Below are positions 6,863 through 46,569 of a DNA stretch of 64,000 nt, piece after piece. Source of the stretch: Nitrospirota bacterium. Its GTDB lineage: Bacteria > Nitrospirota > Thermodesulfovibrionia > Thermodesulfovibrionales > UBA9159. The notes beneath the pieces are model-generated. The model saw nothing but the letters and a program-made list of their open reading frames with translations, made no database searches and was not told the origin of the DNA. The DNA lies in NCBI GenBank assembly GCA_963699545.1, contig CAVOUE010000003.1:768001-832000 (forward strand), given 5' to 3'. Position numbers and translations under genes: made by a program. Every line of letters starts with the position of its first letter. The first letter of the stretch is position 1.

Positions 6863-6941
6863 TGCCGCGATTTGGATTGAATGCCGGGGAATGCTTCAAT
6901 GAAACCCGGGCATGCGGTATCCGCTCCGTGATAATGCCATC

Positions 6942-8033: not shown

Positions 8034-8039
8034 TCGTAT

Positions 8040-8153
8040 TCAATTCTCTTTATCGCCGTCAGCTGTCCCGATGAGCCCCACGTTGAAAAGGAAGACGACC
8101 GCCCCTACAAGGGAGATCGGGTTATAGAATGTCTGAGGGAACAATCTCTTCAC
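8040..8153 (-). pseudogene. 37-codon ORF resembling the membrane-anchor N-terminus of NapC/NirT-type cytochromes c (possible remnant)
   Basis: GTG start after GGAG; VKRLFPQTFYNPISLVGAVVFLFNVGLIGTADGDKEN*; resemblance is from recall only. Confidence 0.3.
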
Positions 8154-8238
8154 GATCTCTCCGCTCCTTCATGCGAGAGTAACGTCAAGAAGCCAGCCTG
8201 GAGCAGTCAGACCAGACCCTTGAAAAAAGGTACGCATC

Positions 8239-9739
8239 TCACTTCTGCTCCCGTGATGCCGGCAGATTTACCGGTGCAGAGGAGCCTTGGGCTACCGGTA
8301 CACCACCCGCAGGTTCCGTTGCCAGCCCCTCTGCCTTGACTACCCAACCCCCGCCCATAGCCTTGTATACATTCACGAGGGCCTGGAAGAGAACCCCTTG
8401 CGCTTGCGCATGTGTCAGTTCCGCACTGTAAAGTCTGCTCTCCGCATCGAGCACCTCGAGATAGCTGGTGTAACCGTTGTCATAACGCAACCACGCAAGG
8501 TGCGCATATTGACGAAGGGAGCCCACCTGTTGAACAAGGGTATCCAACTGCTCCCTCGTCCGCTTCTGGTCAACCAGGGCTATCATCCACCTCGCGGAAG
8601 GCCGTCTGGATGGACTGCTGATACGTGAGCAGCGCCTGTTGCTGCACTGCCTCGGCTGACTGCACCTGCCCTGCAATGGCGCCAGCCGTGAAGATCGGCG
8701 CTGTAACCGGGACCGCCCAGCTCCAGGTCTTTGCCGGTCCCTTGAAGAGATCTGAAAGATCATTGCTCGCCCATCCGAACAGCCCGGTGAGAGAGATGCT
8801 CGGGAAATACAGAGCCTTGGCAACACCGATGTTTGCATTGGCAGCGATAAGGTTCTGTTCAGCCTGACGGATATCAGGACGGTTCGCAAGGATGTCCGAA
8901 GGCAGGCCTGGCAGGGACTGCAGGAAGCATAAGTTCATCAATCGTCTTGCCGCGCGCAATGGGGCCGGGGTTGCGTCCCAGAAGCACGCTCAGGGCATTC
9001 TCCTGCTGGGCTGATGAGCTTCTCGAAGAAGGGGATGTTCGACAGGGCCTGTTCGTATTGGGACTTCGCCTGACTGACCTCGACTTCTGAGACAATCCCA
9101 TACTCGAAACGGAGTTTGAAGATGATCGTACGATTCCTTGTAACTCTTTGCGGTCTGCTCTCGTAAGTTCAAGCTGCTTGTCGAGGTCACGGAGGTTGAT
9201 ATAGGAGTTCGCCACTGAGCTGACAAGGGTAAGTATGACTGTTCTGCGTGCCTCCTCGGTGCTCAGGATGTTCGCACGTGCCGCCTCTGTTGCACGCCGC
9301 AGTTTCCCCCAAAGATCGATCTCCCAGCTGCGGCATTGAGGAAAAGCTCGGAACTATTGAACGTCGGGTTCGCCCCGGTGTCTGTCAAGGGGGCTCGGCC
9401 CTGTCAGTTCGCTTACCCGCTGTCTGTCCATAACCCGCACCGGCGCCTATCTGAGGAAAAAGCGCTGCGCGGGTGGTGCCATACTGACCGACGAACTCGC
9501 TCAACCCGTGCGGCAGCTATCTTCACGTCCTTGTTTTCTCTTAATGCCGTCTGGATGAGGTCATTGAGAACAGGATCATTGAACTGTTCCCACCAGGCGG
9601 TATTGGCAACGTCCTTTGCCTCTTTGTCTTCAAAGCGCCATGACTGTGGAGTATCAACTTGAGGGCGCTGGTAGTTCGGTCCCATCATGCAGCCGAAAAC
9701 AAGAAGGGCAAAAAACAAAGAAGCAATAATCTTACGCAT
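8239..9739 (-). CDS. RND efflux outer-membrane lipoprotein (NodT/OprM family), multiple frameshifts
   Basis: Lipobox VFGC, GPNYQRP, WWEQFNDPVLNDLI, LPSDILANRPDIRQAEQNL, YKAMGGGW. Confidence 0.9.
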
Positions 9740-30688: not shown

Positions 30689-33480
30689 ATGAATAGTGGC
30701 GCAGAAAAAAAGAGACTTGATGAGGCACGGGAGCAGGGGGTTTTGTGGAAGCAAGTGGGGGCCATACCTCAGTGAACGGCAGTGGGGTACGGTGCGCGAG
30801 GACTATAGCGAGGGGGGTGACGCATGGAATTTCTTCACCCACGATCATGCCCGCTCGCGCGCCTACCGCTGGGGCGAGGACGGCATCGCCGGCATTTCCG
30901 ATGACAAAGCAGCACCTCTGCTTTGCGCTGGCCCTCTGGAACGGGAAGGACCCGATCCTCAAGGAGCGGCTCTTCGGCCTCACCAACAGCGAGGGCAATC
31001 ACGGCGAGGACGTCAAGGAATATTATTTCTATCTCGACAGCACGCCGACCCACTCCTACATGAAGTATCTCTACAAGTACCCCCAGTCGGCCTTTCCTTA
31101 CGCCGACCTGGTTGAGACGAACCGCCGGCGCAATCGCGGAACGACATGGAGTATGAGCTCCTCGACACCGGCGTCTTCAATGACGACCGCTACTTCGACG
31201 TCTTTGTTGAGTATGCCAAGGCAGGTCCGGAAGACATCCTGATAAAGATCACGGCAGCCAACCGGGGACCGGAGGCGGCAGAACTGCACCTCCTGCCGAC
31301 GCTCTGGTTCCGGAACGACTGGGCGACGTGGATCGCCGAATCCAACAGGGCTGCCGAGAAACCAGACCTCAGGCAGATCACCCCCTCTCAATCCCCCCCT
31401 TACCAAGGGGGGGCAAAGGGGGGTATGAGCGCGGTCGCGGCAACGCATTCACTGCTGGGTGAATTCATTTTTTCCTGCGAAGGCGAGGTGCCGCTGCTCT
31501 TCACCGATAACACAACGAACAACGAGCGGCTCTTTCCCGGCCTGCCCAATGACAGCCCGTACGTAAAGGACGGGATCAACAACTGCGTGGTGCAGGGCAA
31601 TAAGGCTGCAGTGAATCCCGAAAAGCAGGGCACCAAGGTCGCGGCACACTACCAGGTCAAGGTCGGCGCCGGTCAGACCACGGTGGTCCGCCTGCGGCTG
31701 TCCAAACAGTTCTCCGAACCAAGAAGGGGCGGTAAGCCCTTTGGAAAGGATTTTGATGCAGTCTTTGCTGACAGGCTTCGCGAAGCCGATGAGTTTTACA
31801 AGTCTGTGACGCCGCCATCAGTGAGTGAAGACGCTGCAAACGTCATGCGCCAGGCCATCGCCGGCATGCTCTGGTCCAAGCAGTTCTTCTTCTTCGACGG
31901 TGACAACTGGCTGGACGAGCACCACTCCAACCCTCTCCATACCGGATATCGAAACGCCCGGAACTCGGAGTGGTTCCACATGCTGAACGAGGACGTCGTC
32001 TCGATGCCCGACAAGTGGGAGTACCCCTGGTACGCGGCCTGGGACCTGGCCTTCCACACGCTCCCGCTTTCGATCGTGGACCCCGACTTCGCCAAGGAGC
32101 AGATGAAACTGATGCTCAAAGGCGTCTACCTGCACCCCAGCGGCCAGATGCCGGCCTATGAGTGGAACTTCAGTGACGTGAACCCCCCGGTCCACGCCTG
32201 GGCGACCTTGTTCCTGCACCTGACCGAGCAGGCCCTGCGCGGCGAGACCGATCTCGATTTCCTCAGGGCGACGTTCAACAAGCTGCTGCTGAACTTCACC
32301 TGGTGGGTGAACCGCAAGGACCGGTTCGGCAAGAACGTCTTCGAAGGGGGCTTCCTCGGCCTGGACAACATCGGCATTTTCGACCGCAGCGCCCCTCTGC
32401 CCACCGGCGGCCACCTCGAACAGGCGGACGGCACGGCCTGGATGGCCTTCTTCAGCCAGAACATGCTGGAACTGGCGTTTCAGCTCTCCCTTCACGATCC
32501 CATTTACGAAGACATGATCGTGAAGTTCGCCGAGCACTTTTACTACATCGCCGCGGCAATGAACAAGCCCGGTCAGGAAGGCATGTGGGACGACGAGGAC
32601 GGCTTCTACTACGACATCCTGCGGCTCCCCGACGGCAGCGCCACGCGGCTCAAGGTGCGCTCGATGGTTGGGCTCCTGCCCCTGTGCGCCACGACCGTAA
32701 TCGAGGCTGCGTGGCGGGAGCGCATGCCGCGGGCGATGGCTCAGGTCACGAAGCGCCTGTACCGGATGCCCGAGCTTTTGGAGACTATGCACCCCACCGG
32801 TCCGGGACACTTTGGCGTGGCGGACCGGGGGATCCTGGCCCTGGTCAACCCGGAGCGGCTCCGCCGGATCCTTACGAAGATGCTCGACGAGAACGAGTTC
32901 CTGAGCCCCTACGGCATCCGCTCGATCTCCAAGTTCCACGAGCAGCACCCGTATGTCTTCCACGTGAATGGCCAGGAGTACCGGGTGGACTATTTGCCGG
33001 CCGAGTCGAACACCGGCATGTTCGGCGGCAATTCCAACTGGCGGGGACCTATCTGGATGCCGGTGAACGCCGTCATCATCCGGGCCCTCCTGCAGTACTA
33101 TCTTTACTATGGCGACAACTTCAAGATCGAATGCCCCACGGGTTCAGGGAAGATGATGAACCTCTTTGAGGTGTCCAAGGAGATCGCGGACCGGCTGAGC
33201 CGGATCTTTCTGCGGAATGAACAGGGCAAGCGTCCGGTGTATGGAGGCTCGGAGAAGTTCCAGAGCGATCCCCACTGGCGCGACCACATCCTATTCTACG
33301 AATACTTCCACGGCGACAACGGCGCAGGGCTTGGTGCAAGCCACCAGACAGGCTGGACCGGACTTGTGGCCAAGATGATCCAGCTTTACGGCCTCCTGGA
33401 TCCCAAGCAGTGCCCTGGAGGTGGGCAAAGAAGCTGCGTTCGTGAAGGGCGCCCCGGAAGCCGGGGCGGCAAAGAGATGA
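30689..33480 (+). CDS. MGH1-like / GH63 glycoside hydrolase, several frameshifts
   Basis: [70 protein letters not shown]. Confidence 0.9.
31378..31425. repeat. Short GC palindromic REP-like element inside the GH63 reading frame
   Basis: CCCCCTCTCAATCCCCCCCTTACCAAGGGGGGGCAAAGGGGGG, nested inverted repeats, encodes [16 protein letters not shown]. Confidence 0.6.
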
Positions 33481-34962
33481 GGACATGGCCTAAGCATCCG
33501 GTCATTTATGAGATCAACACATGGGTGTGGCTGGGTGAGCTGAGCCGGAAATACCGGAAGTCCGTGAACCTCGCCACGGTCCCGGAGCAGGAGTGGGATG
33601 CCATCGCTGCTCATGGATTTGATGCGGTCTGGTTCATGGGCGTCTGGGAGCGGAGCCCTGCTGGCATCGCCATTGCGAATCCAGAACAAAGGTCTTCTTG
33701 AAGACTTCCGACGGGCCCTTCCTGACTTTCGCCCGGAAGACAATGTTGGATCTCCCTATTGCGTGCGGCGCTACGTTGTCGATGAACACCTCGGCGGTCC
33801 GAAGGGGCTTGAAGCAGCGCGTAAAGCTCTCGCAAAGCGCGGCATTCTTCTCATCCTGGATTTTGTGCCGAACCATGTCGCTCCTGACCACCCGTGGGTC
33901 CTGAAGCATCCCGAATACTTCGTTCAGGGGAACGCCGACGATGCCAGGAGACGATCCGGCGTCCTTCGTTGAGGCGGGAGGGAAGGTGTTTGCCTGCGGC
34001 AGGGACCCTTACTTCCCGGCATGGCCAGATGTGCTCCAACTGAACGCCTTTGATGCGCGGTTTGCGTCAGGCGGTCATCGAGACAGCTCGGAAAGCATCG
34101 CCGATCAGTGCGACGGCATCCGCTGCGACATGGCCATGCTCATGCTGAACAGCATCTTCGAGCGTACCTGGGGAGCTCGGGCAGGCCAAAAGCCCGACAA
34201 CGACTACTGGACTACGGTCATTGCGGCCATCAAAGCGAAGTATCCCGAGTTCAGGTTCATCGCCGAGGCATACTGGGACCTCGAGTGGGAACTGCAACGG
34301 CAGGGTTTTGATCACTGCTACGACAAGAAACTCTATGACCGGATGGAACATAAGAATGCCGAGAGCGTGCGGATGCACCTCCTTGCAGATCTCTCTTACC
34401 AGCAAGGGATGGTCCGGTTCATTGAGAACCATGACGAGCCGAGGGCTGCAGCCACGTTTCCGGACGGTAAAGGGCGCGCTGCAGCCGTGGCGATCCTCAC
34501 TCTCCCTGGGGCCAGGCTGCTGCACGAGGGGCAGTTCGAGGGACTGAAGGTGAGGTTGCCAGTTTTTCTCGCGCCGTCGCCCCGCAGAGCCGGTCGATCA
34601 TGACCTCGTGGCCTTCTGCCACAATCTCCTGAAAGCGATTAATCATGATGTTTTCAGGAATGGCCAGTGGCTCCTCTGTGAGCGGAGCGGCTGGCCCGAC
34701 AACCAGGGCTATTTGAACATTCTCAGCTGGTGCTGGGTCCAAGGACGGGGAGCGTTACCTTATCATTATAAATTTCTCAGAGGCACCCTCACAGGCCCGC
34801 ATTCAGGTGCCGTGGGATGAACTGAGGGGAAAGACATGGCACCTCGTTGACGCCCTGTCGGGTGAAACCTATAAAAGGGACGGTAATGACCTGAGGGATC
34901 CAGGCCTGCACATTGATCTCGGAGCGTGGGATTGGCATTTCTTCTGCATACAACCTTCGTAA
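33477..34962 (+). CDS. Alpha-amylase family (GH13) glycoside hydrolase, several frameshifts
   Basis: YEINTWVW, LDFVPNH, DGIRCDMAM, FIAEAYW, RFIENHDE; ATGA overlap with GH63 stop. Confidence 0.88.
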
Positions 34963-35235: not shown

Positions 35236-35427
35236 TCATGCATATTCGCCCACAGGGTTTCGACCATTAACCTCTTTTATCTTGCTGGAATCCTTAACGA
35301 AGAAAGGACATTTCTTGTATCCCCTGGTCCTGCAGTATTCGTGGAGTTGAAACACGCTGGGCACATAGATCCTGCCATCGATTTTACAGGTCGCCACTAT
35401 CCAATGATTTAAGTGGGGGCATTTCAT
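35236..35427 (-). CDS. Small Cys4 protein (C-x10-C-x17-C-x7-C), paralog 1
   Basis: MKCPHL...C...EYC.......CPFF; GGAGGAG RBS. Confidence 0.65.
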   Translation of the reverse strand: MKCPHLNHWIVATCKIDGRIYVPSVFQLHEYCRTRGYKKCPFFVKDSSKIKEVNGRNPVGEYA

Positions 35428-35600
35428 GATCTCCTCCAAGTGGGGATGGCTGGCAGCCGTCCGAGCTCCTGCAACGGAAGTCCCTTTATCGAGGGAACCT
35501 CGATCCTGATGCGGCCTGGAACATGGTGTACTATCCTGTACTGAATCACCTCTCATTCTCCTCCTTCTTTTTCTCATTACGGACATTAAACCACCCTTGT

Positions 35601-35638
35601 GTTACAGGGTTATGAATACAAAGTTAAATTCTGGTGAA
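35601..35638 (-). promoter_or_regulatory. Four 11-bp-periodic direct repeats (PhoB/OmpR-type box)
   Basis: Plus-strand pentamers GTTAC 35601, ATGAA 35612, GTTAA 35623, GTGAA 35634. Confidence 0.55.
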
Positions 35639-35786: not shown

Positions 35787-36077
35787 GTGGGGCTTATTGA
35801 TGATGTGTTCAAAGGAAATGTGGTAACGGGCCTTGCGATCGGCATAGGTGCTGCTGTCCTTGGTCCTGCGGTGCTTCCCGTTATTGCAAGTGTGGCCAAA
35901 CCGGTGGCAAAGGCTGCAATAAAAGGGGGGATCATCCTTTACGAAAAGGGCAAAGAGGCCTTCGCAGAAATGGGTGAAGTGGTTGAGGATCTTGTAGCAG
36001 AAGCAAAATCAGAGGTGTCTGAGGCACAAAAAACTGCAGCTGCGGCATCTGCGGCCCAGGGTGAACCGGGTGCATGA
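35787..36077 (+). CDS. DUF5132-type small membrane protein with GxxxG motif (FezA-like architecture)
   Basis: GLAIGIGAAVL.P...VAKPVAKAAIKGG..LYEKGKE..AE.GE..EDLVAEAKSE; AGGAGG RBS, GTG start. Confidence 0.8.
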   Translation: MGLIDDVFKGNVVTGLAIGIGAAVLGPAVLPVIASVAKPVAKAAIKGGIILYEKGKEAFAEMGEVVEDLVAEAKSEVSEAQKTAAAASAAQGEPGA

Positions 36078-36556
36078 TCCAGCCCGAGGCTCATATAAGT
36101 CATCATACCACTGGAAGAATGCGGATCAAGATACCCTCAAAAAAGGGGGACATCGCATATCTGGAGGCTTTGAAGGAACATTTTTCAGGGCTGGAAGGCA
36201 TCAGAGCCCTGGAGGTAAATCCGACGACGGGAAGTGTGCTCATTGTGCACAACCTCGACAGGCAGACCATTGAGCAGTATGCCACGGCAAAGAATCTCTT
36301 CAGCTTGACAGCAGCGAATCCCTCTCCTGCCGGCTTGCACCCGAAGGTGTCCGAGACTTTTCAGGATCTGAACGATCAAATGAAGGCATTCACGTCCGGG
36401 GAGATCAATGTTGGAGGAGCGGCATTCCTTGCCCTTCTTGGTGCGGGGATATACCAGATAGGCAGGGGGAATCTCACTGCCATTCCTTGGTATACCGCAT
36501 TCTGGTATGCTCTCAATATCTTTCTGAAATCCAAGAACGATTCAAAAATGGAATAA
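36074..36556 (+). CDS. HMA2-domain protein with C-terminal membrane segment (FezC-like architecture)
   Basis: HHTTGRMRIK, VNPTTGSVLI, no CxxC; C-terminal LALLGAGIYQ...IPWYTAFWYA; overlaps upstream stop. Confidence 0.78.
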   Translation: MIQPEAHISHHTTGRMRIKIPSKKGDIAYLEALKEHFSGLEGIRALEVNPTTGSVLIVHNLDRQTIEQYATAKNLFSLTAANPSPAGLHPKVSETFQDLNDQMKAFTSGEINVGGAAFLALLGAGIYQIGRGNLTAIPWYTAFWYALNIFLKSKNDSKME

Positions 36557-36746: not shown

Positions 36747-37418
36747 ATGCCAAGGGAAAATGTTGTAAAAAGTGCACCAGCAGGTAAAGAGGAAGTAACC
36801 AGCATGGGCAAAGCGGGTACATCAGTAAAAGAGGGTGTAGTGAGCAGTCTGAAGGGTATCAATGAGATCGAGGCTGAGATCGTCAGTCTGGTGAGGAACA
36901 CCGTTTCCAATACCCTGAGGGCCACCGGTAGCGTGGCCCATGAGGCGGTCACCATCACAAAGGATGTGGTAAAAGGGACGATCCAGGCTACAGAAGAAGT
37001 CGGCACAGGCCTTATCCTCAGCACAAAGAGTGTCGCCAAGGGAATCGTCATGGGTGTGAGTGATGTAGGCGGAGACGTCGTCACTGTTGCCAGCCAGACA
37101 GTAAAGGGTGCGGTGAAGGGCGCGGCAGAAGTGGGCGCGGATGTTGCCATGGTGGCAAGAAGGACGGTTGACGGAGTTATCGAGGCCACAAAAGAAATTG
37201 GCGGAAATGTGGAAGAAGTGGCAAAAGTGGCTGTGGGAGGAGCGATCGAAGCTGCAGGCACTATCGGAAATACTGCCGTGAAGGCCGTAAAAGATATGCT
37301 CGTCGGTGTTGTAGAGGGCGTAAAGGAAGTGGCAGGCTCAGCGCTGCCAAAGCCGCACCAGGTGCCTCCGCCCGCTCATAAGGAGACCGAGAGCCATGCA
37401 AAGGGAAGAAAGAGGTAG
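36747..37418 (+). CDS. Val/Gly/Ala-rich protein built of 22-residue amphipathic repeats
   Basis: VKGTIQATEEVG/AKGIVMGVSDVG/VKGAVKGAAEVG/VDGVIEATKEIG/VGGAIEAAGTIG at 22-aa spacing; AGGAGG RBS. Confidence 0.8.
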   Translation: MPRENVVKSAPAGKEEVTSMGKAGTSVKEGVVSSLKGINEIEAEIVSLVRNTVSNTLRATGSVAHEAVTITKDVVKGTIQATEEVGTGLILSTKSVAKGIVMGVSDVGGDVVTVASQTVKGAVKGAAEVGADVAMVARRTVDGVIEATKEIGGNVEEVAKVAVGGAIEAAGTIGNTAVKAVKDMLVGVVEGVKEVAGSALPKPHQVPPPAHKETESHAKGRKR

Positions 37419-37427: not shown

Positions 37428-40400
37428 GTGGTCCAGCCGGTACATACGGCGGTAAAAGGGAGAACAAGATTTAGAGTAGATGGGCTTTATCGCTCTGAAG
37501 AACTCAAAAGAGAGATCGAATCAAGACTCTCTTCCTATAGGGAGATTCAGGGGTTCTCGGTAAATATCCTTACCGGTAAAGTCCTTGTATTTTATAACTC
37601 AGGTAACTCTCCCGAGTCGATTGCATCGCTCATTGCAGGCGTTGTAGGCGAGGCAGCGAAGGCGGGGAAACCGTCCCCACCGGTCCAGCGGACTGCAGTC
37701 CATGATCAGGGCGAGTGGCTTCCCGCAAGCACTATGCGGGCAGAATACCCTTACCCTGAAGCGGAGAGAAGCCAGCGTATACAGAGCAGAAGGACATTAA
37801 GAAGAAGCGTTGTCCTTTCCGAAGTGCAGACCGAGGAAGCCTGGCACCTCATGGACGCAACGGACGTGCTCGGAACTTTCGGCACGTCAAGAAATTCCGG
37901 ACTGTCCACCGATCTCGTCAGTGTAAATCTCAGGAAATTCGGACCCAATGTTCTTCCTGAAGCGGTCCCCCGTTCCGGGCTGAGTATGTTCTTCAATCAG
38001 TTCAAGTCCGTCCCTGTGGCACTTCTCGGTGTCGCAGCGGGTATTTCTGTTCTTACCGGCGGCCTTGCAGATGCCGTGGTGATCATGGGCGTGGTCTTCA
38101 TAAACGCAGCCATAGGGTACACAACCGAGAGCCAGACCGAAAAAACTATCCACGCCCTGAAGAACCTCGTCAGGCCCTCTGCCGTTGCGGTGCGTGACGG
38201 CAGTGTGAAAGAGATTGGGGCGGGAGAGATAGTGCCGGGAGACCTCCTGCTGCTTAGACCCGGCAGCTATGTTGCGGCGGATGCAAGACTCATCGAAACG
38301 AATCACCTGAGCATTGATGAGTCTGCCCTTACCGGTGAGAGCATGCCGGTGAACAAAGCTGTATCTCCTATCACGCAAAAGGATATCCCCCTCGCTGACA
38401 GGACAAACATGGTCTATATGGGCACCCTCGTTACCGGCGGACAGGGGCTTGCAGTCGTTGTGGCAACGGGGAGGTTCACCGAGATGGGCAAGATCCAGAC
38501 CCTTGTGGGTGAGGCAAGGCCTCCTGAAACACCCATGGAGCGCCAGTTGGACAGAATGGGCAGCCAGCTGGTATTTATCTGCGGAATAGTCTGCGGCATG
38601 GTCTTTGTCACCGGAATGCTCCGGGGATACGGTCTTTTGCAGATGCTTAAGGTTTCCATATCCCTTGCGGTGGCTGCGGTCCCGGAAGGTCTTCCCACGG
38701 TGGCAACCACTACCCTCGCCCTCGGCATCAGAAATATGCGGAAGCATAATGTCCTCATACGACATCTTAACGCGGTCGAGACCCTCGGCTCGGTCCAGAC
38801 CATATGCCTCGACAAGACAGGGACGATCACCTTTAACAGGATGTCCGTGGTCGCAGCATATGCCGGCATGAGAGGCTTCACCGTGTCTCATGGACAGTTT
38901 TTCCAATCCGGTGAACCTCTGAGCGTATATTTCCATGATGAACTCTTAAGACTCATTCACCTATCGGTCCTCTGTAATGAAAGTGAAGTGATCATGAGAG
39001 GACGGCAAATATGTCGTCAACGGCTCTCCGACCGAGAATGCCCTGATACACGTTGCATTAAGTTCAGGGGTTGACGTTCAGATGCTCAGGGAGAAGTTTC
39101 CTGTCCTGAAGATCTATCACCGTTCAGAGAAGCGAAATTACATGTATACGCTCCATGAAACCCGGAATAGTTCTGCACTCATTGCAGTAAAGGGAAGCCC
39201 CAATGAGGTGTTGTCGCTATGCATCTGGCAAATGAAGGATGGTCAGAAGATTCCCCTCACCGATGAAGACCGCCTCGCCCTGGAGACCGAAAATGAGCGC
39301 ATGGCGGGCGAGGCCCTCCGTGTTCTTGGGGTAGCGTATTCGTTTGCCGATGAGCCAGTCACTTCCGATCAAAGAGGACATAGATTCTGCGGACAATCTC
39401 ATTTGGGTCGGGTTTGTGGGCATGGCAGATCCGGTCAGGGATGGAGTGAGGGGATTAATAGGCGAATTTCACAAGGCCGGGATAGATACGGTCATGATTA
39501 CCGGTGACCAAAGCCCGACCGCTTATGCCATAGGAAAAGAATTGAACCTCAGTAATGGCGAACAGCTTGAGATCCTTGATTCCAGCCACCTGATCGATAT
39601 CGACCCTGAGGTGATGAAGGCGCTCTGCAAAAGGGTGCATGTCTTTGCCCGTGTCAGCCCTGCCCACAAACTCCGGATAGTCCAGGTGCTCCAGAGCGCG
39701 GGGAAGGTCGTTGCCATGACGGGCGACGGCATCAACGACGGGCCGGCCCTTAAAGCTGCGGACATCGGTATCGCCATGGGACATACAGGCACCGATGTCG
39801 CCCGTGAGGTGGCAGACGTCGTCATCGAGGACGATAACCTCGATACAATGGTCATTGCCATAAGTCAGGGAAGGACTATCTATAACAACATAAGGAAGTC
39901 CGTCCATTTTCTCTTGTCCACAAATCTCAGCGAGATCATGGTCATGTTCACTGCCATTGCAGGAGGTCTCGGCCAGCCTCTGAGTGCGATACAGTTGCTC
40001 TGGATCAACCTCATGTCCGATATAGCGCCGGGTCTGGCGCTTGCCCTCGAACCGCCGGAGCCTGATGTTCTGAGCCAGCCGCCGCGCGACCCTGACGAGC
40101 CCATTGTGAGGAAATCAGATTTCAAGAGAATCACCTTTGAATCAGCAATGATATCTGCCGGGACCTTAGGGGCTTACGGGTATGGCATTGCGAGATACGG
40201 CATGGGCCAAAAGGCAGGTAGTCTTGCGTTCCTGAGCCTTACCACAGGACAGCTCCTCCATGCGATCAGCTGCCGTTCAGAGAGGCACAGCATATTCGGC
40301 AGGGAGAAGTTGCCGCCGAACAAATATCTCAATATGGCCCTGGGGGGTTCCTTTGCCATCCAGCTCTTGGCTATGGTGATACCGGGGTTGAGAAATCTCC

Positions 40401-40513
40401 TGGGCATCGCTCCAATCAGTGTCCTTGATGGTGTTGTAATCGGAGGCAGCGCCGTTCTCCCCTTATTGGTGAATGAAGGAACGAAGAAACTCCCGAAAGA
40501 GGTAACCGCATGA
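37428..40513 (+). CDS. P2 (Ca2+/Mn2+-type) P-type ATPase with N-terminal HMA2 domain; two frameshifts (~39000, ~39360)
   Basis: HTAVKGRTRFR...NILTGKVLV; DESALTGES, AVPEGLP, DKTGT, MITGD, TGDGINDGPAL, STNLSE, QLLWINLMSD. Confidence 0.9.
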
Positions 40514-41709
40514 AAAAAGACTTCATCTTTACATCAGAATCCGTAACAGAAGGCCATCCTGACAAGCTCTGCGACCAGATAAGCGACGCCATAGTTGACC
40601 ATTTCCTTCAGCAGGACCCCTATTCAAGGGTCATTGCCGAGTGCGCAGTATCGACTGCGATCATGTTCATCGCCGCGAGGTTCGAATCTAATGCGAGCGT
40701 GGATTTCCCGAATATAGCGAGGCAGGTCGTAAACCAGATCGGTTATGACCAGGATGCCTTTAATGCAAAGACGTGCAGCATCGTGACAAGTCTCAAGGAA
40801 TTGCCCCATGATGAGCATTGCTGCTTTGATGAAAGAAAACTGTCAGATGCGGAGATCGATGCAATTCCCGCGCGCAACCAGGTTACCGTCTTCGGTTTTG
40901 CCTGCAACCAGACATCTGCCCTTATCCCCCTTCCCATCTGGCTGGCCCACAGACTGGCAAGGAAACTCACCTCCGTCAGACTCCAGAAGATACTCTCCTA
41001 TCTTGCGCCTGATGGGAAAACGCAGGTGGGGATCGAGTACAGGAACGGAAAGCCTCACAGGATCCACAGCATCACGGTTATCGCCAGTCAGGACAGGCCT
41101 TCAGCGGCAGGAGGCCCTGATATGAAGAGGCTCGAAGACGATATCAGGCAGGTTGTTATAGATTCTGTATTCCCTGATGAGGATATAAAACCTGACAGAA
41201 ACACAAAGATATTTATCAATCCTGATGGCCCGTTTATCATCGGAGGTCCCTCAGTCCATTCCGGGCTGACGGGAAGGAAAAATGCAATTGATACGTACGG
41301 AGAATACTCCCGACAGAGCGGAGCTGCCCTCAGCGGTAAAGACCCTATGCGTATAGACAGGATAGGCGCCTATGCGGCCCGTTACGCAGCAAAGAATGTC
41401 GTTGCTGCAGGACTCGCGGATGAGTGCGAAATACAGCTCAGCTACTCCATCGGTCTTGCGAGGCCTGTGAGCATTCAGGTAGAGACCTTCGGCACGGGAA
41501 AGATCCCTGATGAGAAAATCTCAGCGCTCGTTGAGAGACATTTTGATTTCCGTCTGGCAGGGATCATACGACAGTTTAATCTGAGATACCTCCCATCGAT
41601 TTTGAAGGGTGGCTTTTACAGAAAACTTGCGGCTTACGGACATGTGGGGAGAATGGATATAGGACTTCCCTGGGAGCTGATAGACAAAATGAGCGAGATG
41701 AGAGGGTAA
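40510..41709 (+). CDS. metK: S-adenosylmethionine synthetase homolog with divergent methionine site
   Basis: FTSESVTEGHPDKLCDQISD, DGKTQV, GLTGRK, SGKDP, AAYGH; ATGA overlap with ATPase stop. Confidence 0.88.
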   Translation: MKKDFIFTSESVTEGHPDKLCDQISDAIVDHFLQQDPYSRVIAECAVSTAIMFIAARFESNASVDFPNIARQVVNQIGYDQDAFNAKTCSIVTSLKELPHDEHCCFDERKLSDAEIDAIPARNQVTVFGFACNQTSALIPLPIWLAHRLARKLTSVRLQKILSYLAPDGKTQVGIEYRNGKPHRIHSITVIASQDRPSAAGGPDMKRLEDDIRQVVIDSVFPDEDIKPDRNTKIFINPDGPFIIGGPSVHSGLTGRKNAIDTYGEYSRQSGAALSGKDPMRIDRIGAYAARYAAKNVVAAGLADECEIQLSYSIGLARPVSIQVETFGTGKIPDEKISALVERHFDFRLAGIIRQFNLRYLPSILKGGFYRKLAAYGHVGRMDIGLPWELIDKMSEMRG

Positions 41710-41789: not shown

Positions 41790-41987
41790 ATGATATCAAC
41801 GCAAGATCTGCTCGTCGTCCTGGTAATCGTCCTTGTTTTGTTCGGTAAGACGAGGCTGCGCGAACTCGCTAAAGGGTTGAAAGAAGGGGTCAAGAATTAC
41901 AAGAAGAGCCTGTCCGAGCCGGACGAAATAGACGTTACGCCCAAAAAAAATAAGAATAACAAAGAAGGCCGGAGTTGTAGAAAATGA
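41790..41987 (+). CDS. tatA: Twin-arginine translocase TatA/E subunit
   Basis: TM helix + LFG hinge + amphipathic RLRELAKGLKEGVKNYKK. Confidence 0.8.
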   Translation: MISTQDLLVVLVIVLVLFGKTRLRELAKGLKEGVKNYKKSLSEPDEIDVTPKKNKNNKEGRSCRK

Positions 41988-42126: not shown

Positions 42127-42175
42127 CTCACCTCTGATTCATCAACATGTAACACGCCTTTCATCATCGCTTAAC
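42127..42175 (+). promoter_or_regulatory. Five 11-bp-periodic direct repeats (Pho-box-like) upstream of the phosphoesterase
   Basis: CTCAC 42127, TTCAT 42138, GTAAC 42149, TTCAT 42160, TTAAC 42171. Confidence 0.65.
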
Positions 42176-42449: not shown

Positions 42450-44257
42450 ATGTCAACGAAAAGGTATACCCAGAGGTTTCTCTCTCTCCTCGTGATCCTG
42501 TCACTGGCGATGTTTATCGCAGTCACATCGGCATTCGCGGAACCCTGGAAGTTCGGCGTAATGTCCGACACTCAGTGGAAGACCTCCCCAGATGCGAAGA
42601 ATCCAAACACTGTGGCGGTCGGACCGATCATTCACCTCAACCAGGAATTCAAGAACCACGGTGTCAAGTTCGTTATCCAGACCGGGGACTTGACGGAAAA
42701 CGGCAACAACCTTGAGATGGATACAACTGCAACCTTCAGGCAGGCCCTTTATAACGCCGGTATCGGCTTCTACCCGCTCCGTGGCAACCACGATACATTT
42801 GCTGCGGTCGCCACGAGTTCCAGGCGTCTTCCCGCAGACCCAGACCGGGTAAACAACCAGACTCCTACCGACGCGCTGGTCACCACCCCCTATTACGGCA
42901 ACCCCATCGACCCGGCGAACCCATATAACCTGTTCAACACGAACACCACCTTCACTGTCGGGTCCAATTTCAGCAGCCCGACGGACATTGACCCTAACTA
43001 TGCCGGGTCTGACTTACTCGTTCGATTACGACAATGCCCGTTTCGTGATGCTGGACGGTTTTACGATACCGAACATTGCCTGTAATCTGATTGAGAACCA
43101 GCAGCCCTGGATATCGAGCACGCTTTCGACCAGGCCGGCAGAGACTCCCATGCCTTTGTATTTTCCCACAAAGGCCTGATCACTGAAAACCATACGGATA
43201 TCCTCTTTACGCTCCGGGCAAGTGCAACGGCAGCAGCACCAGCAGCAATCCTTCCGTCAAACCTGCTGAGCAGAATGCGTTTATGAGCAGCCTGTTCAAC
43301 AACGGCGTCCGGTATCTCATGAACGGCCACGACCACATGCACAACCGGGCTATTGTCGACGAGCCCGGACGCCCTCTCGACAGGTACAGAACATCACCAC
43401 CTCCTCCAACAGCTACAAGTTCTATATTCCGCTTGATCCCGTCGAACGACGAAACGTTCAAAGCTGACCTACGGCATCACGCAACGCTTTCCCCGGGAGA
43501 CCGGAGATCGCTCAGGAGCTCTTCACCGTCGGCTACTACATCGTCACGGTGGACGGACCGCGGGTGACCGTGGACCACTACTCTTCGCCGAACGGTTGCA
43601 ATGGCGACTGCGACCAGACCAACGATCGTAATTCCTACACCTTCACCAAGCGCGAGACCTTCGGCTACAGCCTCAACGGCCAGGAATTCCTTGGTTGGCA
43701 GGGCGAGTCCTACACGGCTGTTCAGGACAGCTTCGAGGGCACGACTGCGAAGATCCTTGGCTGGCGTCAACGGCAGCACGGCAACGGTCTATGACGGCCG
43801 CGCAATGACCAAGGCCGTCAATACCGGGTGGACCTCGGGTCAGAAGCTGATGACATGGACTACAGTGCCAGCCACAGGTGGCCGTGGTTCTCTAAGAAGC
43901 GCTACCAGAGGAAGGATGACGAAATGCCTGCCAGCGATATCCTCACCCTCTGGGGCATGGCCGACCTCGGGAGCGACCAGACCGACGTGTACACGCTCTC
44001 GATGAGCTATGACCACCACAAATTGCTCCCCATTCAACTCGGGAAAGGGCCTGTTGGGCCTTGCAACGAGGGATGAGAACGGCGACTGGGTCAACGCCGT
44101 GGATATGAACTTCGGCGGCACCAAGAAATTCGTCCTCGGCCCCTGGAAGCCCGGCTACGAGCTCGGCACATACGGTATCGACCTGAAAACACACACCGCC
44201 TGGGCGGTCATTAACTACAATGGCGATTTCGCCGTCGCCGGGTTCAGACATTTTTGA
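42450..44257 (+). CDS. Secreted calcineurin-like metallophosphoesterase, many frameshifts
   Basis: Signal peptide; SDTQ, TGDL, RGNHD, FSHK, NGHDH motifs across shifted frames. Confidence 0.82.
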
Positions 44258-44805: not shown

Positions 44806-45144
44806 CTATTCTTCTAACCCTCCCCCTCCCAATGCCGTTACAACCTTTTCAGCCACTTCAAGGGCCTTTTCAGTGGCTTTCTCTATATACTGATCGCACG
44901 TTTCTGCCTTTGCAAGACAAAAATAACCATACTTCTCCAGAATACCGATGACCTGTTCACAGTTGATCTTCTTTTCATCAAAGTGTAGTACTGCACTTCC
45001 GGTGACCGTATGGGTCTCCACAGCGGTTATTCCCTCAATTCCTTTTATAAACGTTTGAAACTGCTCAGCCTTTTCCGGGTTTTCCCGAATCACCGGGGTT
45101 TCGATCCTTATCCTGCCGGGCACATAATGAATATAATATTCCAT
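44806..45144 (-). CDS. HMA2-domain protein
   Basis: MEYYIHYVPGRIRI, HTVTGSAVL.FD, GYF. Confidence 0.8.
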   Translation of the reverse strand: MEYYIHYVPGRIRIETPVIRENPEKAEQFQTFIKGIEGITAVETHTVTGSAVLHFDEKKINCEQVIGILEKYGYFCLAKAETCDQYIEKATEKALEVAEKVVTALGGGGLEE

Positions 45145-45491
45145 TTCCCGTCCTCCCGTCTCGGACAGCATAGAACAGCTGTCAACTTCTTCTATTTTAG
45201 CAGCCACACCCTTTATTCTCAATATACTTTATGTCCTAAGGCATTATGAGAATCCATTTTCAACCCGCAGTCTGCAACGTTATGGCTTTGGATAGTATAG
45301 CAACAAGACATATCTTGTCGTCCTTTATGGAGGAGTATTCAGCTAGGGCTTGTTTGATTTGCGTTTGGAAATCAGACCACCAGAGACTTTAGTGATGTGA
45401 ATTATGTTTTATTGTCATTCAGGAAATAAATAAGGAAGGAATATGAGCAGGCAGTCTGGGCGAGCCCTTGCAGGGAACGGGATGAAAAAAT

Positions 45492-45864
45492 CTATATCAG
45501 GAGAGTGATAAGAGACAATGCAGATCCTTCCAGTGCCGTTTCTAGAAAGGTACCGAAGATGGCTCTCCCCACCACATCTCCTGCTTTGGAAGCGGCTCTG
45601 TGGATGTACTGGTCGTTTGTCAAGGCCTTTGATGTGTCAAAATAGCCTTTTCTCTGAAGGAGACTCACGATGTCATCGTGATGTATGGTCTTGGGGTTAT
45701 AATTCACAAGAATGCTTCCGGTAGTCAGGTTAATATCTACCGTTGCTATCCCCTGCATGGTGCTCAAGCTCTTCCTGATATCATCAGCGATATCCTGATT
45801 CCTCTCTGACCAAAGGGCTTTTCACCCTCAGCCTTCCGGGAACGTTATGGATGTAATAGCTCAT
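45492..45864 (-). CDS. HMA2-domain protein (frameshift near 45805)
   Basis: MSYYIHNVPGRLRVKSPL then INLTTGSILVNY...KGYFD...TNDQYI; paralog of 44806-45144. Confidence 0.78.
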
Positions 45865-46159
45865 CTTTTTCCTCCTTTATCCTGAATTTCCTGTACTCTC
45901 TGCATTCCGGATATCCTGAGCATCTGAACCGTATAACCTCTCCCTCAATCTTGTAGACATTCATGCTCTTTCCGCAGGCGGGACAGACCGGTTTGCCCTT
46001 TACCGATAACTTCTTGGCATTCTTGGTAAACTGCATGCCGCACATCATGCAAAGGAATCTCTCTTTTCCGGTCCAGGCCTTTCCGTATTTATATACTGCA
46101 TCCGAAGCGCAATCCGGGCATTTGGCATTGAGTTTCTCGATTACGGCTTGTGCTTCCAT
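45845..46159 (-). CDS. Double zinc-ribbon protein (InsA-like ribbon + topoisomerase-type C4 ribbon)
   Basis: CPDC..YKYGK...RFLCMMC and CPACGKSM...CSGYPEC. Confidence 0.75.
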   Translation of the reverse strand: MEAQAVIEKLNAKCPDCASDAVYKYGKAWTGKERFLCMMCGMQFTKNAKKLSVKGKPVCPACGKSMNVYKIEGEVIRFRCSGYPECREYRKFRIKEEKDELLHP

Positions 46160-46181: not shown

Positions 46182-46219
46182 TTTACAGCATTATTAAGGG
46201 ATTGTTACATTTTCGTTAC
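46182..46219 (-). promoter_or_regulatory. Four 11-bp-periodic direct repeats upstream of zinc-ribbon/HMA2 genes
   Basis: Plus-strand TTTAC 46182, ATTAA 46193, GTTAC 46204, GTTAC 46215. Confidence 0.5.
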
Positions 46220-46409
46220 ATTTCAGTGTTTCAGCAGCGGTCTCCCGCAATAGGGAGATATAGATTGCGCATACTTCATAGTGTCTCCCCATGCAGAGCC
46301 GAATGTCAGCCCCTTGTATAGACCTGACCAACTTGTTCAGCACGTTGCATTTTGCCCCATTCGAGCTTCCCTCAAGGTACTGACAAAGCATTCCTCTTGA
46401 CTGGTACAT
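46194..46409 (-). CDS. Small Cys4 protein (C-x11-C-x17-C-x7-C), paralog 2
   Basis: LCQYL...C...LC....YEVCAIY; AGGAGG RBS. Confidence 0.65.
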   Translation of the reverse strand: MYQSRGMLCQYLEGSSNGAKCNVLNKLVRSIQGADIRLCMGRHYEVCAIYISLLRETAAETLKCNENVTIP

Positions 46410-46453
46410 TACTTCCTCCTTTTCTTTCTCTTTACAACTATACAATCTTATCT

Positions 46454-46491
46454 GTTACAGCATTGTTACAAGAATATTAAATTTCTGAGAA
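46454..46491 (-). promoter_or_regulatory. 11-bp-periodic direct repeats upstream of Cys4 paralog 2
   Basis: Plus-strand GTTAC 46454, GTTAC 46465, ATTAA 46476, GAGAA 46487. Confidence 0.5.
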
Positions 46492-46569
46492 AAGACATAA
46501 AAGGGGAAATCAGTAATCATGCTGACTGCCTGAGAAAGTCTTTTGATCCATCTTAAACCCTCTGTTACG

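What the first reader, a model, noticed from the sequence alone, without database searches (positions are those of the whole stretch)
40510..41709. MetK paralog that has lost every methionine-binding residue but kept most ATP/metal ligands
Hand alignment to E. coli MetK. Retained: H15, D17 (GHPD), E43, DxK164-166, RK245-246, K266. Changed Met ligands: E56->R (IAARF), Q99->L (KELPHD), D239->H (GGPSVHSG), K270->R (KDPMRID). GAGDQG has become PARNQV and R230->P. The ORF is intact and coupled to the ATPase by an ATGA overlap. Inference: probably not a SAM synthetase. It may adenosylate another nucleophile or retain only the (tri)polyphosphatase half-reaction, which would fit a cation-phosphate compartment.
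Basis: partly seen in the sequence, partly recalled or inferred. Interest (0 to 1): 0.85.

Follow-up and report, generated by a model that had tools for sequence, protein, structure and literature searches.

The report
Pump-linked MetK look-alike, not SAM synthetase
This gene looks like the enzyme that makes the methyl donor SAM, but it belongs to a widespread, undescribed sister family that has lost the methionine pocket, keeps the triphosphate-metal site and sits directly behind one kind of calcium-type ion pump.

Summary
ORF 40510-41709 is an intact three-domain MetK fold. Against E. coli MetK it keeps H15, D17, E43, D164, K166, F231, R245, K246, K266 and D272. It changes all four methionine ligands (E56R, Q99L, D239H, K270R), and GAGDQG becomes PARNQV.

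The changes are fixed. Proteins with this signature form one well-supported branch apart from canonical MetK. In 94 of 94 loci with enough flank, from at least nine phyla, the gene lies directly downstream of a P-type ATPase. Where that ATPase is full length it nearly always carries an N-terminal CoBaHMA (HMA_2) domain. DUF5132 and CoBaHMA genes lie beside it.

All 16 other variant-bearing genomes tested also hold a canonical metK. This 87%-complete MAG shows only the variant. dN/dS is 0.04-0.09.

In this genome the locus carries 11-bp-phased repeat arrays like those at the pstS promoter, which suggests phosphate-starvation control.

Most likely it is an active enzyme that does not make SAM and works with the pump. 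The chemistry is inferred only; I favour tri- or short polyphosphate handling.

I found no description in the papers I could search. Earlier agents of this scan reached the same reading on other genomes.

The parts
40510..41709 (+). MetK-like paralog (399 aa). The triphosphate and metal ligands are kept, the methionine ligands are replaced.
37428..40513 (+). P2-type (SPCA/LMCA1/SERCA-like) P-type ATPase with an N-terminal CoBaHMA (HMA_2) domain. In this assembly it is split into 37428-39074, 39082-39507 and 39344-40513 by two 1-base insertions, near 38994-38996 and 39354. It is a single 1026-aa ORF in relative L015.
36747..37418 (+). 223-aa protein of repeated amphipathic segments with no Pfam match. 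It is conserved in 9 of 10 relatives' loci (no match in L021; L023 holds no sequence upstream of the ATPase) and in 27 of 120 wider loci.
36074..36556 (+). CoBaHMA (HMA_2) protein with a hydrophobic C-terminal stretch.
35787..36077 (+). DUF5132 protein: an N-terminal TM segment followed by an acidic helix.
35601..35638 (.). Array of four half-sites at 11-bp phase (GTTAC/ATGAA type on +, TGTAAC type on -), between the divergent Cys-rich ORF and the DUF5132 gene. The block is conserved in relatives.
35236..35586 (-). Divergent small Cys-rich ORF. The conserved part starts near residue 42-55, so the real start is probably internal.
41790..41987 (+). TatA/B/E-family small membrane protein, directly downstream of the MetK-like gene.
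42138..42175 (.). Second perfect copy of the half-site array. Read on the + strand it is of the TGTAAC type, followed by a 10-bp gap and TATTCT, upstream of the phosphoesterase gene.
42450..43085 (+). Calcineurin-like metallophosphoesterase with a hydrophobic N-terminal signal-like segment. Not conserved in the relatives' loci.
44806..45222 (-). Convergent CoBaHMA (HMA_2) protein, conserved downstream of the MetK-like gene in relatives.
46182..46492 (-). Two arrays of 4x TGTAAC-type units at 11-bp phase (46182-46220 and 46454-46492), upstream of minus-strand small genes. These genes include a zinc-ribbon protein (45845-46159) and a weak HMA_2 match (45492-45767).

Best explanation
The gene encodes a neofunctionalised paralog of methionine adenosyltransferase and is not the cell's SAM synthetase. 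It keeps the MetK fold and the Mg2+/K+-triphosphate half of the active site. The pocket that holds methionine's amino and carboxylate groups has been rebuilt with basic and hydrophobic residues (R56, L99, R118, H239, R270).

It is the obligate, co-translated cytoplasmic partner of a Ca-type (P2) P-type ATPase that carries an N-terminal CoBaHMA domain. Both belong to a conserved module that also holds DUF5132 and free-standing CoBaHMA proteins. In this genome the module appears to share a regulon with pstS, which points to phosphate starvation.

Most likely mechanism (inferred, not shown): it still binds a triphosphate with Mg2+/K+ and performs only phosphate chemistry. That would be hydrolysis of inorganic tri- or short-chain polyphosphate, or of the triphosphate of an NTP. 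The new Arg and His side chains would take the place that methionine and the SAM cation occupy in MetK. In this way Pi release from Ca/Mg-polyphosphate or nucleotides would be coupled to export of the freed cation by the pump.

My odds:
- about 0.9 that it does not make SAM as its main role;
- about 0.85 that it works functionally with the pump;
- about 0.35 for the tri/polyphosphatase chemistry specifically.
For: Shown:
1. All four methionine backbone ligands are replaced, while H15, D17, E43, D164, K166, R245, K246, K266 and D272 are kept. Residue roles come from a passage of PMC3853416 and a passage of PMC1282579.
2. Across 96 pump-linked sequences: D17 96, E43 96, R245 96, K246 96, K266 96, D272 93 (+3 E), H15 92, D164 91 (+5 E), K166 72. 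E56 is R82/H9/K3 and K270 is R95. In 61 canonical MetKs these positions read E/Q/D/K almost without exception.
3. In an IQ-TREE of 55 rows, the 21 rows with the H239/R270 signature are one side of a branch (SH-aLRT 99, length 0.35) against canonical MetK.
4. A DNA pattern for GP..H.G.TGRK...D.YG found at least 120 stretches in species-representative genomes. All 120 hold a MetK-like ORF. All 94 with at least 700 nt of upstream flank have a P-type ATPase directly upstream on the same strand. Of 67 full-length ATPase ORFs, 60 show the CoBaHMA H...GRxR signature in the N-terminal extension. Four of the 7 misses are cut or partial, one has a variant motif and two are second ATPases in the locus.
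5. The same gene order holds in all 10 loci from 9 related genomes.
6. All 11 related genomes with the variant, and all 5 isolate genomes tested, also have a canonical metK.
7. dN/dS is 0.04-0.09. dN is of the same order as that of canonical metK in the same genome pairs, from about half to about 2.6 times.
8. The orthologous pump has intact TGES, PEGL, DKTGT, TGD and GDGxND motifs. Its closest solved relatives are SPCA1, LMCA1 and SERCA.
9. Four TGTAAC units at 11-bp phase, with at least 19 of 24 matches, occur at 8 positions in the 3.04-Mb genome and at 0 in a Markov-1 control. The positions are the pstS promoter (2), a site 0.6 kb from another CoBaHMA gene near pstS (4 overlapping positions on both strands) and two places in this locus. 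A looser half-site pattern has perfect matches only at 35601 and 42138 in this locus.

Inferred: the phosphate chemistry, the coupling to cation export, and the role of R56 and H239.
Against: - No assay exists. The sequence does not show what is bound.
- D164, a ribose-hydroxyl ligand, is kept in 91 of 96, and H15, the proposed catalytic acid for C5'-O5' cleavage, in 92 of 96. Position 231, the adenine stack, is aromatic in 50 and aliphatic in 32 of 96. These fit retained nucleoside binding at least as well as a pure polyphosphatase.
- This genome shows no canonical metK and no archaeal MAT. Here the variant is the only MetK homologue seen, in an 87%-complete assembly.
- The pump is frameshifted twice in this assembly.
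- The H239 count is circular, because the 120 loci were selected by H at that position.
- The repeat arrays are assigned to a Pho-type regulator only by their likeness to the pstS promoter of the same genome. No regulator was identified. The array at 35601 reads in the orientation of the divergent gene, not of the cassette.
- In Chlorogloeopsis fritschii PCC 6912 neither of its two copies sits beside recognisable calcium-carbonate or phosphate genes within about 10 kb.
Confidence: 0.5

Rival explanations
1. It is still a nucleosyl (adenosyl) transferase that uses ATP but attacks C5' with a different nucleophile. That nucleophile would lack a free alpha-ammonium group and is probably anionic: a small oxyanion, a thio- or carboxy-acid, or a protein- or peptide-bound side chain. 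The product would be a new adenosylated compound plus PPPi.
For: - H15, the catalytic acid for C5'-O5' cleavage (PMC3853416 passage), is kept in 92 of 96. D164, a ribose ligand, is kept in 91 of 96. F231 is kept in the window's clade.
- The two acidic residues that hold methionine's ammonium become basic (E56R, D239H), and K270 stays cationic as R. This looks like a redesigned substrate pocket, not a decayed one.
- Loss of exactly the alpha-amino and alpha-carboxylate ligands is what a non-amino-acid or peptide-bound nucleophile would need.
Against: - D239 is also a ribose-hydroxyl ligand and S100 an adenosine ligand. Both are lost.
- Position 231 is not aromatic in 46 of 96.
- No candidate substrate-making or product-using enzyme is conserved in the module. 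Beyond the pump, CoBaHMA, DUF5132 and the repeat protein, no neighbour family recurs.
Confidence: 0.25
2. It is a non-catalytic, ligand-sensing subunit. It binds ATP, PPPi or polyphosphate at the retained site and regulates or scaffolds the pump.
For: The 94 of 94 adjacency and the overlapping or closely spaced stop and start codons suggest stoichiometric co-production with the pump. There are precedents of enzyme folds reused as sensors (general knowledge, no call).
Against: - Both Mg2+ ligands, the K+ ligand and all four basic triphosphate ligands stay essentially invariant across at least nine phyla.
- dN/dS is as low as for a housekeeping enzyme. Pseudoenzymes usually lose metal ligands.
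- No fused forms with the pump were seen among 20 long homologues.
Confidence: 0.15
3. It is a genuine SAM synthetase isozyme with an unusual methionine pocket, dedicated to supplying SAM locally. In this genome it is the only one.
For: - It scores above the TIGR01034 cut-off, 381 against 309 bits.
- It is the only MetK homologue found in this assembly.
- Sources name the family methionine adenosyltransferase.
Against: - All four methionine backbone ligands are changed, and D119 as well, with charge reversal at E56.
- Every other variant-bearing genome tested keeps a canonical copy, 16 of 16.
- The assembly is 87% complete and holds many split genes, so a missing canonical metK is unsurprising.
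Confidence: 0.04
4. The locus is decaying in this organism. The pump is a pseudogene and the MetK-like gene is a remnant.
For: Two +1 insertions split the pump. They are absent from close relatives and from related-strain contigs in public runs.
Against: - The MetK-like ORF and all the small partner genes are intact.
- dN/dS against the nearest relative is 0.09.
- The same assembly shows at least 7 ABC-ATPase genes split between frames and 3 with in-frame stops. This points to assembly indel errors.
Confidence: 0.03

Closest known systems
Canonical bacterial methionine adenosyltransferase MetK (EC 2.5.1.6; E. coli MetK, PDB 1FUG/1RG9/7LOO; TIGR01034)
   Same: - Three-domain fold (TM 0.86-0.96), 42-49% identity.
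- H15, D17, E43, D164, K166, R245, K246, K266 and D272 are conserved.
   Different: - Methionine ligands E56, Q99, D239 and K270 are replaced by R, L, H and R. GAGDQG becomes PARNQV. S100 becomes P.
- It forms a separate clade.
- It is always a second copy beside a canonical metK in the other genomes tested.
- It always lies downstream of a P-type ATPase.
The tripolyphosphatase half-reaction of MetK (PPPi to PPi + Pi)
   Same: All residues that hold PPPi and the two Mg2+ ions and K+ are retained. This half-reaction needs no methionine.
   Different: In MetK the PPPi is made in situ from ATP, and SAM stimulates its hydrolysis (recalled from the Markham laboratory's work, not seen in any call). 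Here an external PPPi or polyphosphate substrate would be needed. This is untested.
Gene neighbourhood of ccyA (calcyanin) in Microcystis aeruginosa PCC 7806, candidate genes for intracellular amorphous CaCO3 (bioRxiv 10.1101/2024.07.07.602159, passages read)
   Same: DUF5132 proteins and CoBaHMA (Pfam HMA_2) proteins lie next to Ca2+ transport genes.
   Different: - In the passages read, that locus has a Ca2+/H+ exchanger and calcyanin. No MetK-like gene is mentioned.
- The present module has a P-type ATPase and no calcyanin.
- In C. fritschii PCC 6912 the module's two copies show no recognisable calcium-carbonate genes (Ca2+/H+ exchanger, carbonic anhydrase) among the flanking genes scanned within about 10 kb; no calcyanin (ccyA) model was available to search.
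P2A/P2C Ca2+(Mn2+)-ATPases SPCA1, Listeria LMCA1 and SERCA (partner gene)
   Same: Best solved relatives of the partner pump (E 1e-146 to 1e-124). All P-type motifs, the PEGL Glu and the TM6 Asn and Asp are present.
   Different: The partner pump has an extra N-terminal CoBaHMA domain of about 135 residues and an obligate MetK-like neighbour.

Membership tests
Methionine adenosyltransferase MetK (TIGR01034 / PF00438+PF02772+PF02773) | Three-domain MetK fold and profile score above the curated cut-off | tested here: met
   All three Pfam domains match. TIGR01034 scores 381 against 309 bits. AF2 pLDDT is 91. Foldseek TM to MetK structures is 0.86-0.96.
Methionine adenosyltransferase MetK (TIGR01034 / PF00438+PF02772+PF02773) | Triphosphate, Mg2+ and K+ ligands (H15, D17, E43, K166, R245, K246, K266, D272; gene numbering) | tested here: met
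   All are present in the window protein. They are kept in 92-96 of 96 family members, except K166 at 72 of 96.
Methionine adenosyltransferase MetK (TIGR01034 / PF00438+PF02772+PF02773) | Methionine ligands E56, Q99, D239 and K270 (roles from PMC3853416 and PMC1282579 passages) | tested here: not met
   They read R, L, H and R in the window and are fixed across the family. In 61 canonical MetKs they read E55, Q57, D61 and K61.
Methionine adenosyltransferase MetK (TIGR01034 / PF00438+PF02772+PF02773) | GAGDQG loop with D119 | tested here: not met
   It reads PARNQV in the window. Position 119 is N46/D15/H15/Q9 of 96, against D in 59 of 61 canonical MetKs.
Methionine adenosyltransferase MetK (TIGR01034 / PF00438+PF02772+PF02773) | Housekeeping role: the genome's SAM source | tested here: inconclusive
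   It is the only MetK homologue in this 87%-complete assembly. In 16 of 16 other variant-bearing genomes a canonical metK is also present.
Methionine adenosyltransferase MetK (TIGR01034 / PF00438+PF02772+PF02773) | Catalysis of ATP + L-methionine to SAM | not testable with these tools
   Needs an enzyme assay or complementation.
Pump-linked MetK-like subfamily (informal; H239/R270 signature) | Signature R/H56, H239 and R270 with retained triphosphate ligands, and membership of the clade | tested here: met
   (branch support SH-aLRT 99).
Pump-linked MetK-like subfamily (informal; H239/R270 signature) | Directly downstream, on the same strand, of a CoBaHMA-tagged P2-type ATPase, with DUF5132 and CoBaHMA genes nearby | tested here: met
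   Window. Relatives. 94 of 94 loci. 60 of 67 pumps with the CoBaHMA signature.
Pho (phosphate-starvation) regulon member | Direct-repeat operator at 11-bp phase next to a -10 element, shared with the pstS promoter of the same genome | tested here: inconclusive
   Arrays were found at 35601, 42138, 46182 and 46454, and at the pstS promoter. The regulator, its binding and the expression response were not tested. The array at 35601 faces the divergent gene.

The most novel reading that the evidence does not exclude
The MetK-like protein is a new enzyme of a Ca-P homeostasis system found in many phyla. Under phosphate starvation it either makes a so far unknown 5'-adenosylated compound, or makes or cleaves inorganic triphosphate as a Ca2+-chelating metabolite. 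It would do this in step with a CoBaHMA-gated calcium pump. CoBaHMA's conserved basic patch would then be the sensor of that anionic product. That would define a new catalytic activity for the MetK fold and a function for the CoBaHMA and DUF5132 proteins now discussed only as neighbours of a bacterial calcium-carbonate gene.
Probability: 0.2. Interest if true: 0.9.

Novelty: new variant of a known kind. Interest (0 to 1): 0.74.

Why it matters
- **Annotation.** Because it passes the TIGR01034 cut-off, the family is named 'methionine adenosyltransferase' or 'S-adenosylmethionine synthetase' in the public records seen. Metabolic reconstructions therefore count it as a SAM source. For MAGs like this one that could hide a missing metK.
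- **Biology.** I know of no activity of the MetK fold other than SAM synthesis. Here a large, strongly constrained sister family has been rebuilt at exactly the methionine pocket and is tied 94 of 94 times to one kind of Ca-type pump. This makes a new enzyme activity, and the function of CoBaHMA and DUF5132 proteins, directly testable.
- **Hosts.** The module occurs in cultured organisms: Methylococcus capsulatus, Methylocystis, Nitrosospira, Chlorogloeopsis and Fischerella.
- **Prior notice.** The M. capsulatus Bath genome paper noted two divergent MetK genes as 'redundant' in 2004, with no follow-up that I could find.

Tried and rejected
- **Complex prediction.** I folded the MetK-like protein with the pump's N-terminal 190 residues (CoBaHMA plus linker). 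The result was no verdict, score 0.00 against a mark of 0.32. This is not evidence either way.
- **Fusions.** None of the 20 homologues longer than 470 aa among the 50%-cluster representatives has the H239 signature.
- **RNA evidence.** No RNA holder was listed for the stretch.
- **Laying public contigs.** Only small-share holders exist. These are relatives at 90-97% identity from soil, peat and wetland metagenomes. They lack the two extra bases in the pump but are not the same organism, so they cannot tell a true frameshift from an assembly error.
- **Link to calcyanin or carbonate genes.** The 20-kb surroundings of both copies in C. fritschii PCC 6912 showed DUF5132 genes and the pump. The other genes scanned there (a Coq4-like gene, an SBF transporter, CheR, UvdE and others) are not recognisable calcium-carbonate genes.
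- **Further conserved neighbours.** All-against-all clustering of ORFs from 120 loci gave no further recurrent family. Most extra clusters are shadow frames of the conserved genes.
- **Half-site hits outside the locus.** The strict half-site pattern also hit C11:68053 and C10:6076. The genes there (a CBM48 protein, a GH1 glycosidase) gave no clear phosphate link.
- **Does loss of the aromatic residue at 231 go with loss of D164, H15 or K166?** It does not. This test therefore does not separate the nucleoside and polyphosphate readings.
- **Literature.** These searches found no description of the pump-linked MetK-like family:
  - DUF5132;
  - SAM synthetase + P-type ATPase + Thermodesulfovibrio + paralog;
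  - CoBaHMA;
  - methionine adenosyltransferase + P-type ATPase + calcyanin;
  - MetK-like, MetK homolog and similar terms;
  - MCA0139, MCA0450 and neighbouring locus tags;
  - PF19991, PF17195 and IPR033456.
- **Paper not held.** Gaschignard et al. 2024 (Proteins 92:776), which defines CoBaHMA architectures, is not in the library and may mention the pump or its neighbours. I did not ask for supplementary files.
Full report
**1. The observation**

ORF 40510-41709 (+) is open and encodes 399 aa. It starts with an ATG that overlaps the TGA of the preceding ATPase piece. It matches the N-terminal, central and C-terminal MetK Pfam domains. It scores 381 bits on TIGR01034, whose cut-off is 309.4. 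That is above the cut-off but well below the 464-618 bits of canonical metK genes scored with the same model in other genomes.

I fetched E. coli K-12 metK and aligned it. In gene numbering:
- Kept: H15, D17, E43, D164, K166, F231, R245, K246, K266, D272.
- Changed: E56R, Q99L, S100P, G118R, D119N, G121V, R230P, D239H, G254E, H258Q, K270R.

HMMER alignments to solved MetK structures show the same changes.

For the residue roles I read passages of two papers (mature numbering, one less than gene numbering):
- PMC3853416: His14 is the proposed catalytic acid. Phe230 stacks on adenine. Asp163 and Asp238 bind the ribose hydroxyls. Asp238 and Glu55 bind the methionine amino group. Gln98 and Lys269 bind its carboxylate. 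Ile102 contacts the side chain.
- PMC1282579: the same picture, plus Ser99 for adenosine.

An AF2 model built on 44 family sequences is confident (pLDDT 91, pTM 0.91). It superposes on MetK structures with TM 0.86-0.96.

**2. The changes are fixed, and the protein belongs to a distinct family**

- The 120 nearest proteins, at least 77% identical and mostly from Thermodesulfovibrionales and other Nitrospirota MAGs, carry the same motifs. Regex counts are H239 118, R270 119 and R56 114 of 120.
- A search of 50%-identity cluster representatives found more distant proteins (39-58% identical) with H239 and R270, with R or H at 56 in most of them, and with intact H15, D17, E43, R245, K246, K266 and D272. 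Canonical MetKs are almost invariant at all these positions.
- In an IQ-TREE of 55 rows, the 21 signature-bearing rows lie on one side of a branch with SH-aLRT 99 and length 0.35. Five other odd MetKs that I had provisionally grouped with them fall among the canonical ones.
- dN/dS of the variant between related genomes is 0.04-0.09. Its dN is of the same order as that of canonical metK in the same genome pairs, from about half to about 2.6 times. It is therefore a constrained, functional protein.

**3. It is a second copy**

- Among 40 related genomes, 11 carry the variant (65-93% identity) and all 11 also carry a canonical copy at 46-49% identity.
- Five isolate genomes that carry the variant each hold a canonical metK at 464-618 bits plus one or two variants at 231-404 bits. 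They are Chlorogloeopsis fritschii PCC 6912, Methylocystis sp. L43, Nitrosospira sp. Nsp14, Sagittula salina and Actibacterium naphthalenivorans.
- The Methylococcus capsulatus Bath genome paper listed MetK (MCA0450 and MCA0139) among 'redundant genes with divergent phylogenies' (PMC517821, passage). I found no later work on these locus tags.
- The window's own genome is the exception. Only the variant is found, and no archaeal-type MAT. The assembly is 87% complete in 13 contigs and carries many broken genes. I read the missing canonical copy as probably unassembled, but this is not shown.

**4. Context**

In 10 loci from 9 related genomes the order is the same. In window coordinates:
- a divergent small Cys-rich gene (35236-35586, -);
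- DUF5132 (35787-36077);
- a CoBaHMA/HMA_2 protein (36074-36556);
- a 223-aa amphipathic-repeat protein (36747-37418);
- a P-type ATPase with an N-terminal HMA_2 domain (37428-40513);
- the MetK-like gene (40510-41709);
- a convergent HMA_2 gene downstream (44806-45222, -).

Pfam HMA_2 is the 'CoBaHMA' domain. I read that in passages of bioRxiv 10.1101/2024.07.07.602159 and of PMC8890360. In those papers CoBaHMA and DUF5132 proteins are discussed as neighbours of ccyA and a Ca2+/H+ exchanger in cyanobacteria that form intracellular amorphous CaCO3.

To sample beyond close relatives I back-translated GP..H.G.TGRK...D.YG into a DNA pattern. It hits once in the window and none of 100 shuffles. 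By the phylum and class labels they come from:
- Gamma- (18), Alpha- (16) and Betaproteobacteria (3);
- Cyanobacteriota (16);
- Thermodesulfobacteriota (29, plus 9 records labelled only Deltaproteobacteria);
- Nitrospirota (13);
- Myxococcota (7) and Binatota (2);
- one each from Acidobacteriota, Actinomycetota and Chloroflexota.

I made profiles from the relatives' cassette proteins and searched these loci with them:
- All 120 loci hold a MetK-like ORF.
- All 94 loci with at least 700 nt of upstream flank have a P-type ATPase directly upstream on the same strand.
- DUF5132, HMA_2 and the repeat protein were seen in 48, 75 and 27 of the 120 eight-kb loci. These counts are limited by flank length.
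- Of 67 full-length ATPase ORFs in these loci, 60 have the CoBaHMA H...GRxR signature in the N-terminal extension. The 7 misses are 4 ORFs cut or partial, 1 variant motif and 2 second ATPases.
- Across 96 complete pump-linked MetK-likes against 61 canonical MetKs, the ligand pattern of section 1 holds.

One caveat: this sample was chosen by H at position 239. That count is circular, and the sample cannot show whether D239 forms ever sit behind such pumps.

**5. The pump**

In relative L015 the pump is one 1026-aa ORF. Its closest solved relatives are SPCA1, Listeria LMCA1 and SERCA (E 1e-146 to 1e-124). The TGES, PEGL, DKTGT, TGD and GDGxND motifs are intact, and the TM6 Asn and Asp align. So a Ca2+ (or Mn2+) type pump is the reasonable reading.

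In the window it is split by two single-base insertions, near 38994-38996 and 39354, relative to L014 and L015. Related-strain contigs from public metagenomes also lack these bases, but they are 90-97% alike and not the same organism. The same assembly shows at least 7 ABC-ATPase genes split between frames and 3 with in-frame stops. I therefore lean to assembly error over pseudogenisation, unresolved.

**6. Regulation**

This was a lead from earlier notes of this scan, which I partly tested here.
- The region upstream of the DUF5132 gene holds a block conserved in relatives, with half-sites at 11-bp phase.
- In this genome, pstB and pstS lie on contig C11. The pstS promoter has TGTAAC units at 11-bp and 22-bp spacing, followed by a gap and TATTAT.
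- I scored four TGTAAC units at 11-bp phase over the whole genome. Eight positions have at least 19 of 24 matches, against none in a Markov-1 control. Two are at the pstS promoter. Four overlap on both strands at a site 0.6 kb from another HMA_2 gene 6 kb from pstS. Two are in the window, at 46182 and 46454.
- The looser half-site pattern has perfect matches only at 35601 and at 42138, upstream of a secreted-looking metallophosphoesterase.

This fits a Pho-type regulon. The regulator was not identified. The array at 35601 reads in the orientation of the divergent gene. No expression data were available.

**7. What it most likely does**

Shown:
- it is a constrained MetK-fold protein;
- its triphosphate and metal site is intact;
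- its methionine site is rebuilt with R, L, H and R, plus R or K at 118 in 60 of 96;
- it is obligately linked to a CoBaHMA-tagged Ca-type pump.

Inferred:
- It is catalytically active, because both Mg2+ ligands, the K+ ligand and all basic triphosphate ligands are kept over at least nine phyla.
- It does not make SAM.
- Its role is tied to the pump under phosphate limitation.

I commit to phosphate-only chemistry: hydrolysis of tri- or short polyphosphate, or of an NTP's triphosphate. This is the ancestral second half-reaction of MetK and needs no methionine. It would make sense beside a pump that removes the Ca2+ or Mg2+ released from polyphosphate. My odds for it are about 0.35.

The main rival, at about 0.25, is adenosyl transfer to a different, probably anionic or non-amino-acid nucleophile. 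Retention of H15 and D164, and of F231 in this clade, favours it. Loss of D239 and S100, and the non-aromatic residue at 231 in 46 of 96, count against it. A ligand-sensing, non-catalytic subunit gets about 0.15. A real SAM synthetase gets about 0.04.

**8. Known or new**

None of my seven literature searches found a description of this family or of its link to the pump. The paper that defines CoBaHMA architectures, Gaschignard et al. 2024, is not held, so I cannot exclude that it mentions the pump or its neighbour.

Earlier agents of this scan, working on other genomes, reached the same reading of the MetK-like gene and of the operon. Those are unreviewed notes. I repeated the key tests independently here.

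I class the finding as a new variant of a known kind: a MetK-fold subfamily with a rebuilt substrate pocket and a fixed pump partner, whose function is untested.

Noticed in passing
window 41790-41987 (+): A 65-aa TatA/B/E-family protein (PF02416, 39 bits) is encoded directly downstream of the MetK-like gene. I did not check whether it is conserved in other loci.
   Followed up: partly
window 42450-43085 (+), with repeat array at 42138-42175: A calcineurin-like metallophosphoesterase with a hydrophobic N-terminal segment is preceded by a perfect copy of the 11-bp-phased half-site array, then a 10-bp gap and TATTCT. It is not found in the relatives' loci.
   Followed up: partly
window 36747-37418 (+): A 223-aa protein made of repeated Gly/Val/Ala-rich amphipathic segments, with no Pfam match. 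It is conserved in 9 of 10 relatives' loci and 27 of 120 wider loci. It looks like a coat or phasin-like protein, but this was not tested.
   Followed up: partly
window 37428-40513; G000 generally: The pump is split by two 1-base insertions. The same assembly has at least 7 ABC-ATPase genes in pieces in different frames and 3 with in-frame stops. Indel errors therefore seem common in this MAG, and gene calls from it need care.
   Followed up: partly
G000 C11:66554-66922 and C11:72532-72582 (L158): The pstS promoter carries TGTAAC direct repeats at 11-bp phase. A second, bidirectional array 6 kb away lies 0.6 kb from another free-standing HMA_2 gene (L158:5560-5931, -). CoBaHMA genes thus also sit in the phosphate-transport island.
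   Followed up: partly
window 45845-46159 (-) and 45492-45767 (-): A multi-zinc-ribbon small protein and a weak HMA_2 match lie downstream of the two arrays at 46182 and 46454, on the strand convergent with the cassette.
   Followed up: no
L156 (Chlorogloeopsis fritschii PCC 6912 chromosome, first copy): In this complete genome the partner ATPase of one of the two module copies is also split near its C-terminus (5635-8520 and 8510-8830 in the locus). About 500 nt separate it from the MetK-like gene. The second copy (L157) is intact and has two DUF5132 genes.
   Followed up: no
window 31146-33701 (+): An 851-aa GH63 / MGH1-like glycoside hydrolase (mannosylglycerate-hydrolase-like) lies upstream of the locus. 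It has no evident link to the cassette.
   Followed up: no
proteins P0163, P0172, P0176, P0216, P0226: Other single, long-branched MetK homologues have different active-site changes, for example Q99 or D239 altered on their own. They fall among canonical MetKs in the tree and are not part of this family.
   Followed up: no
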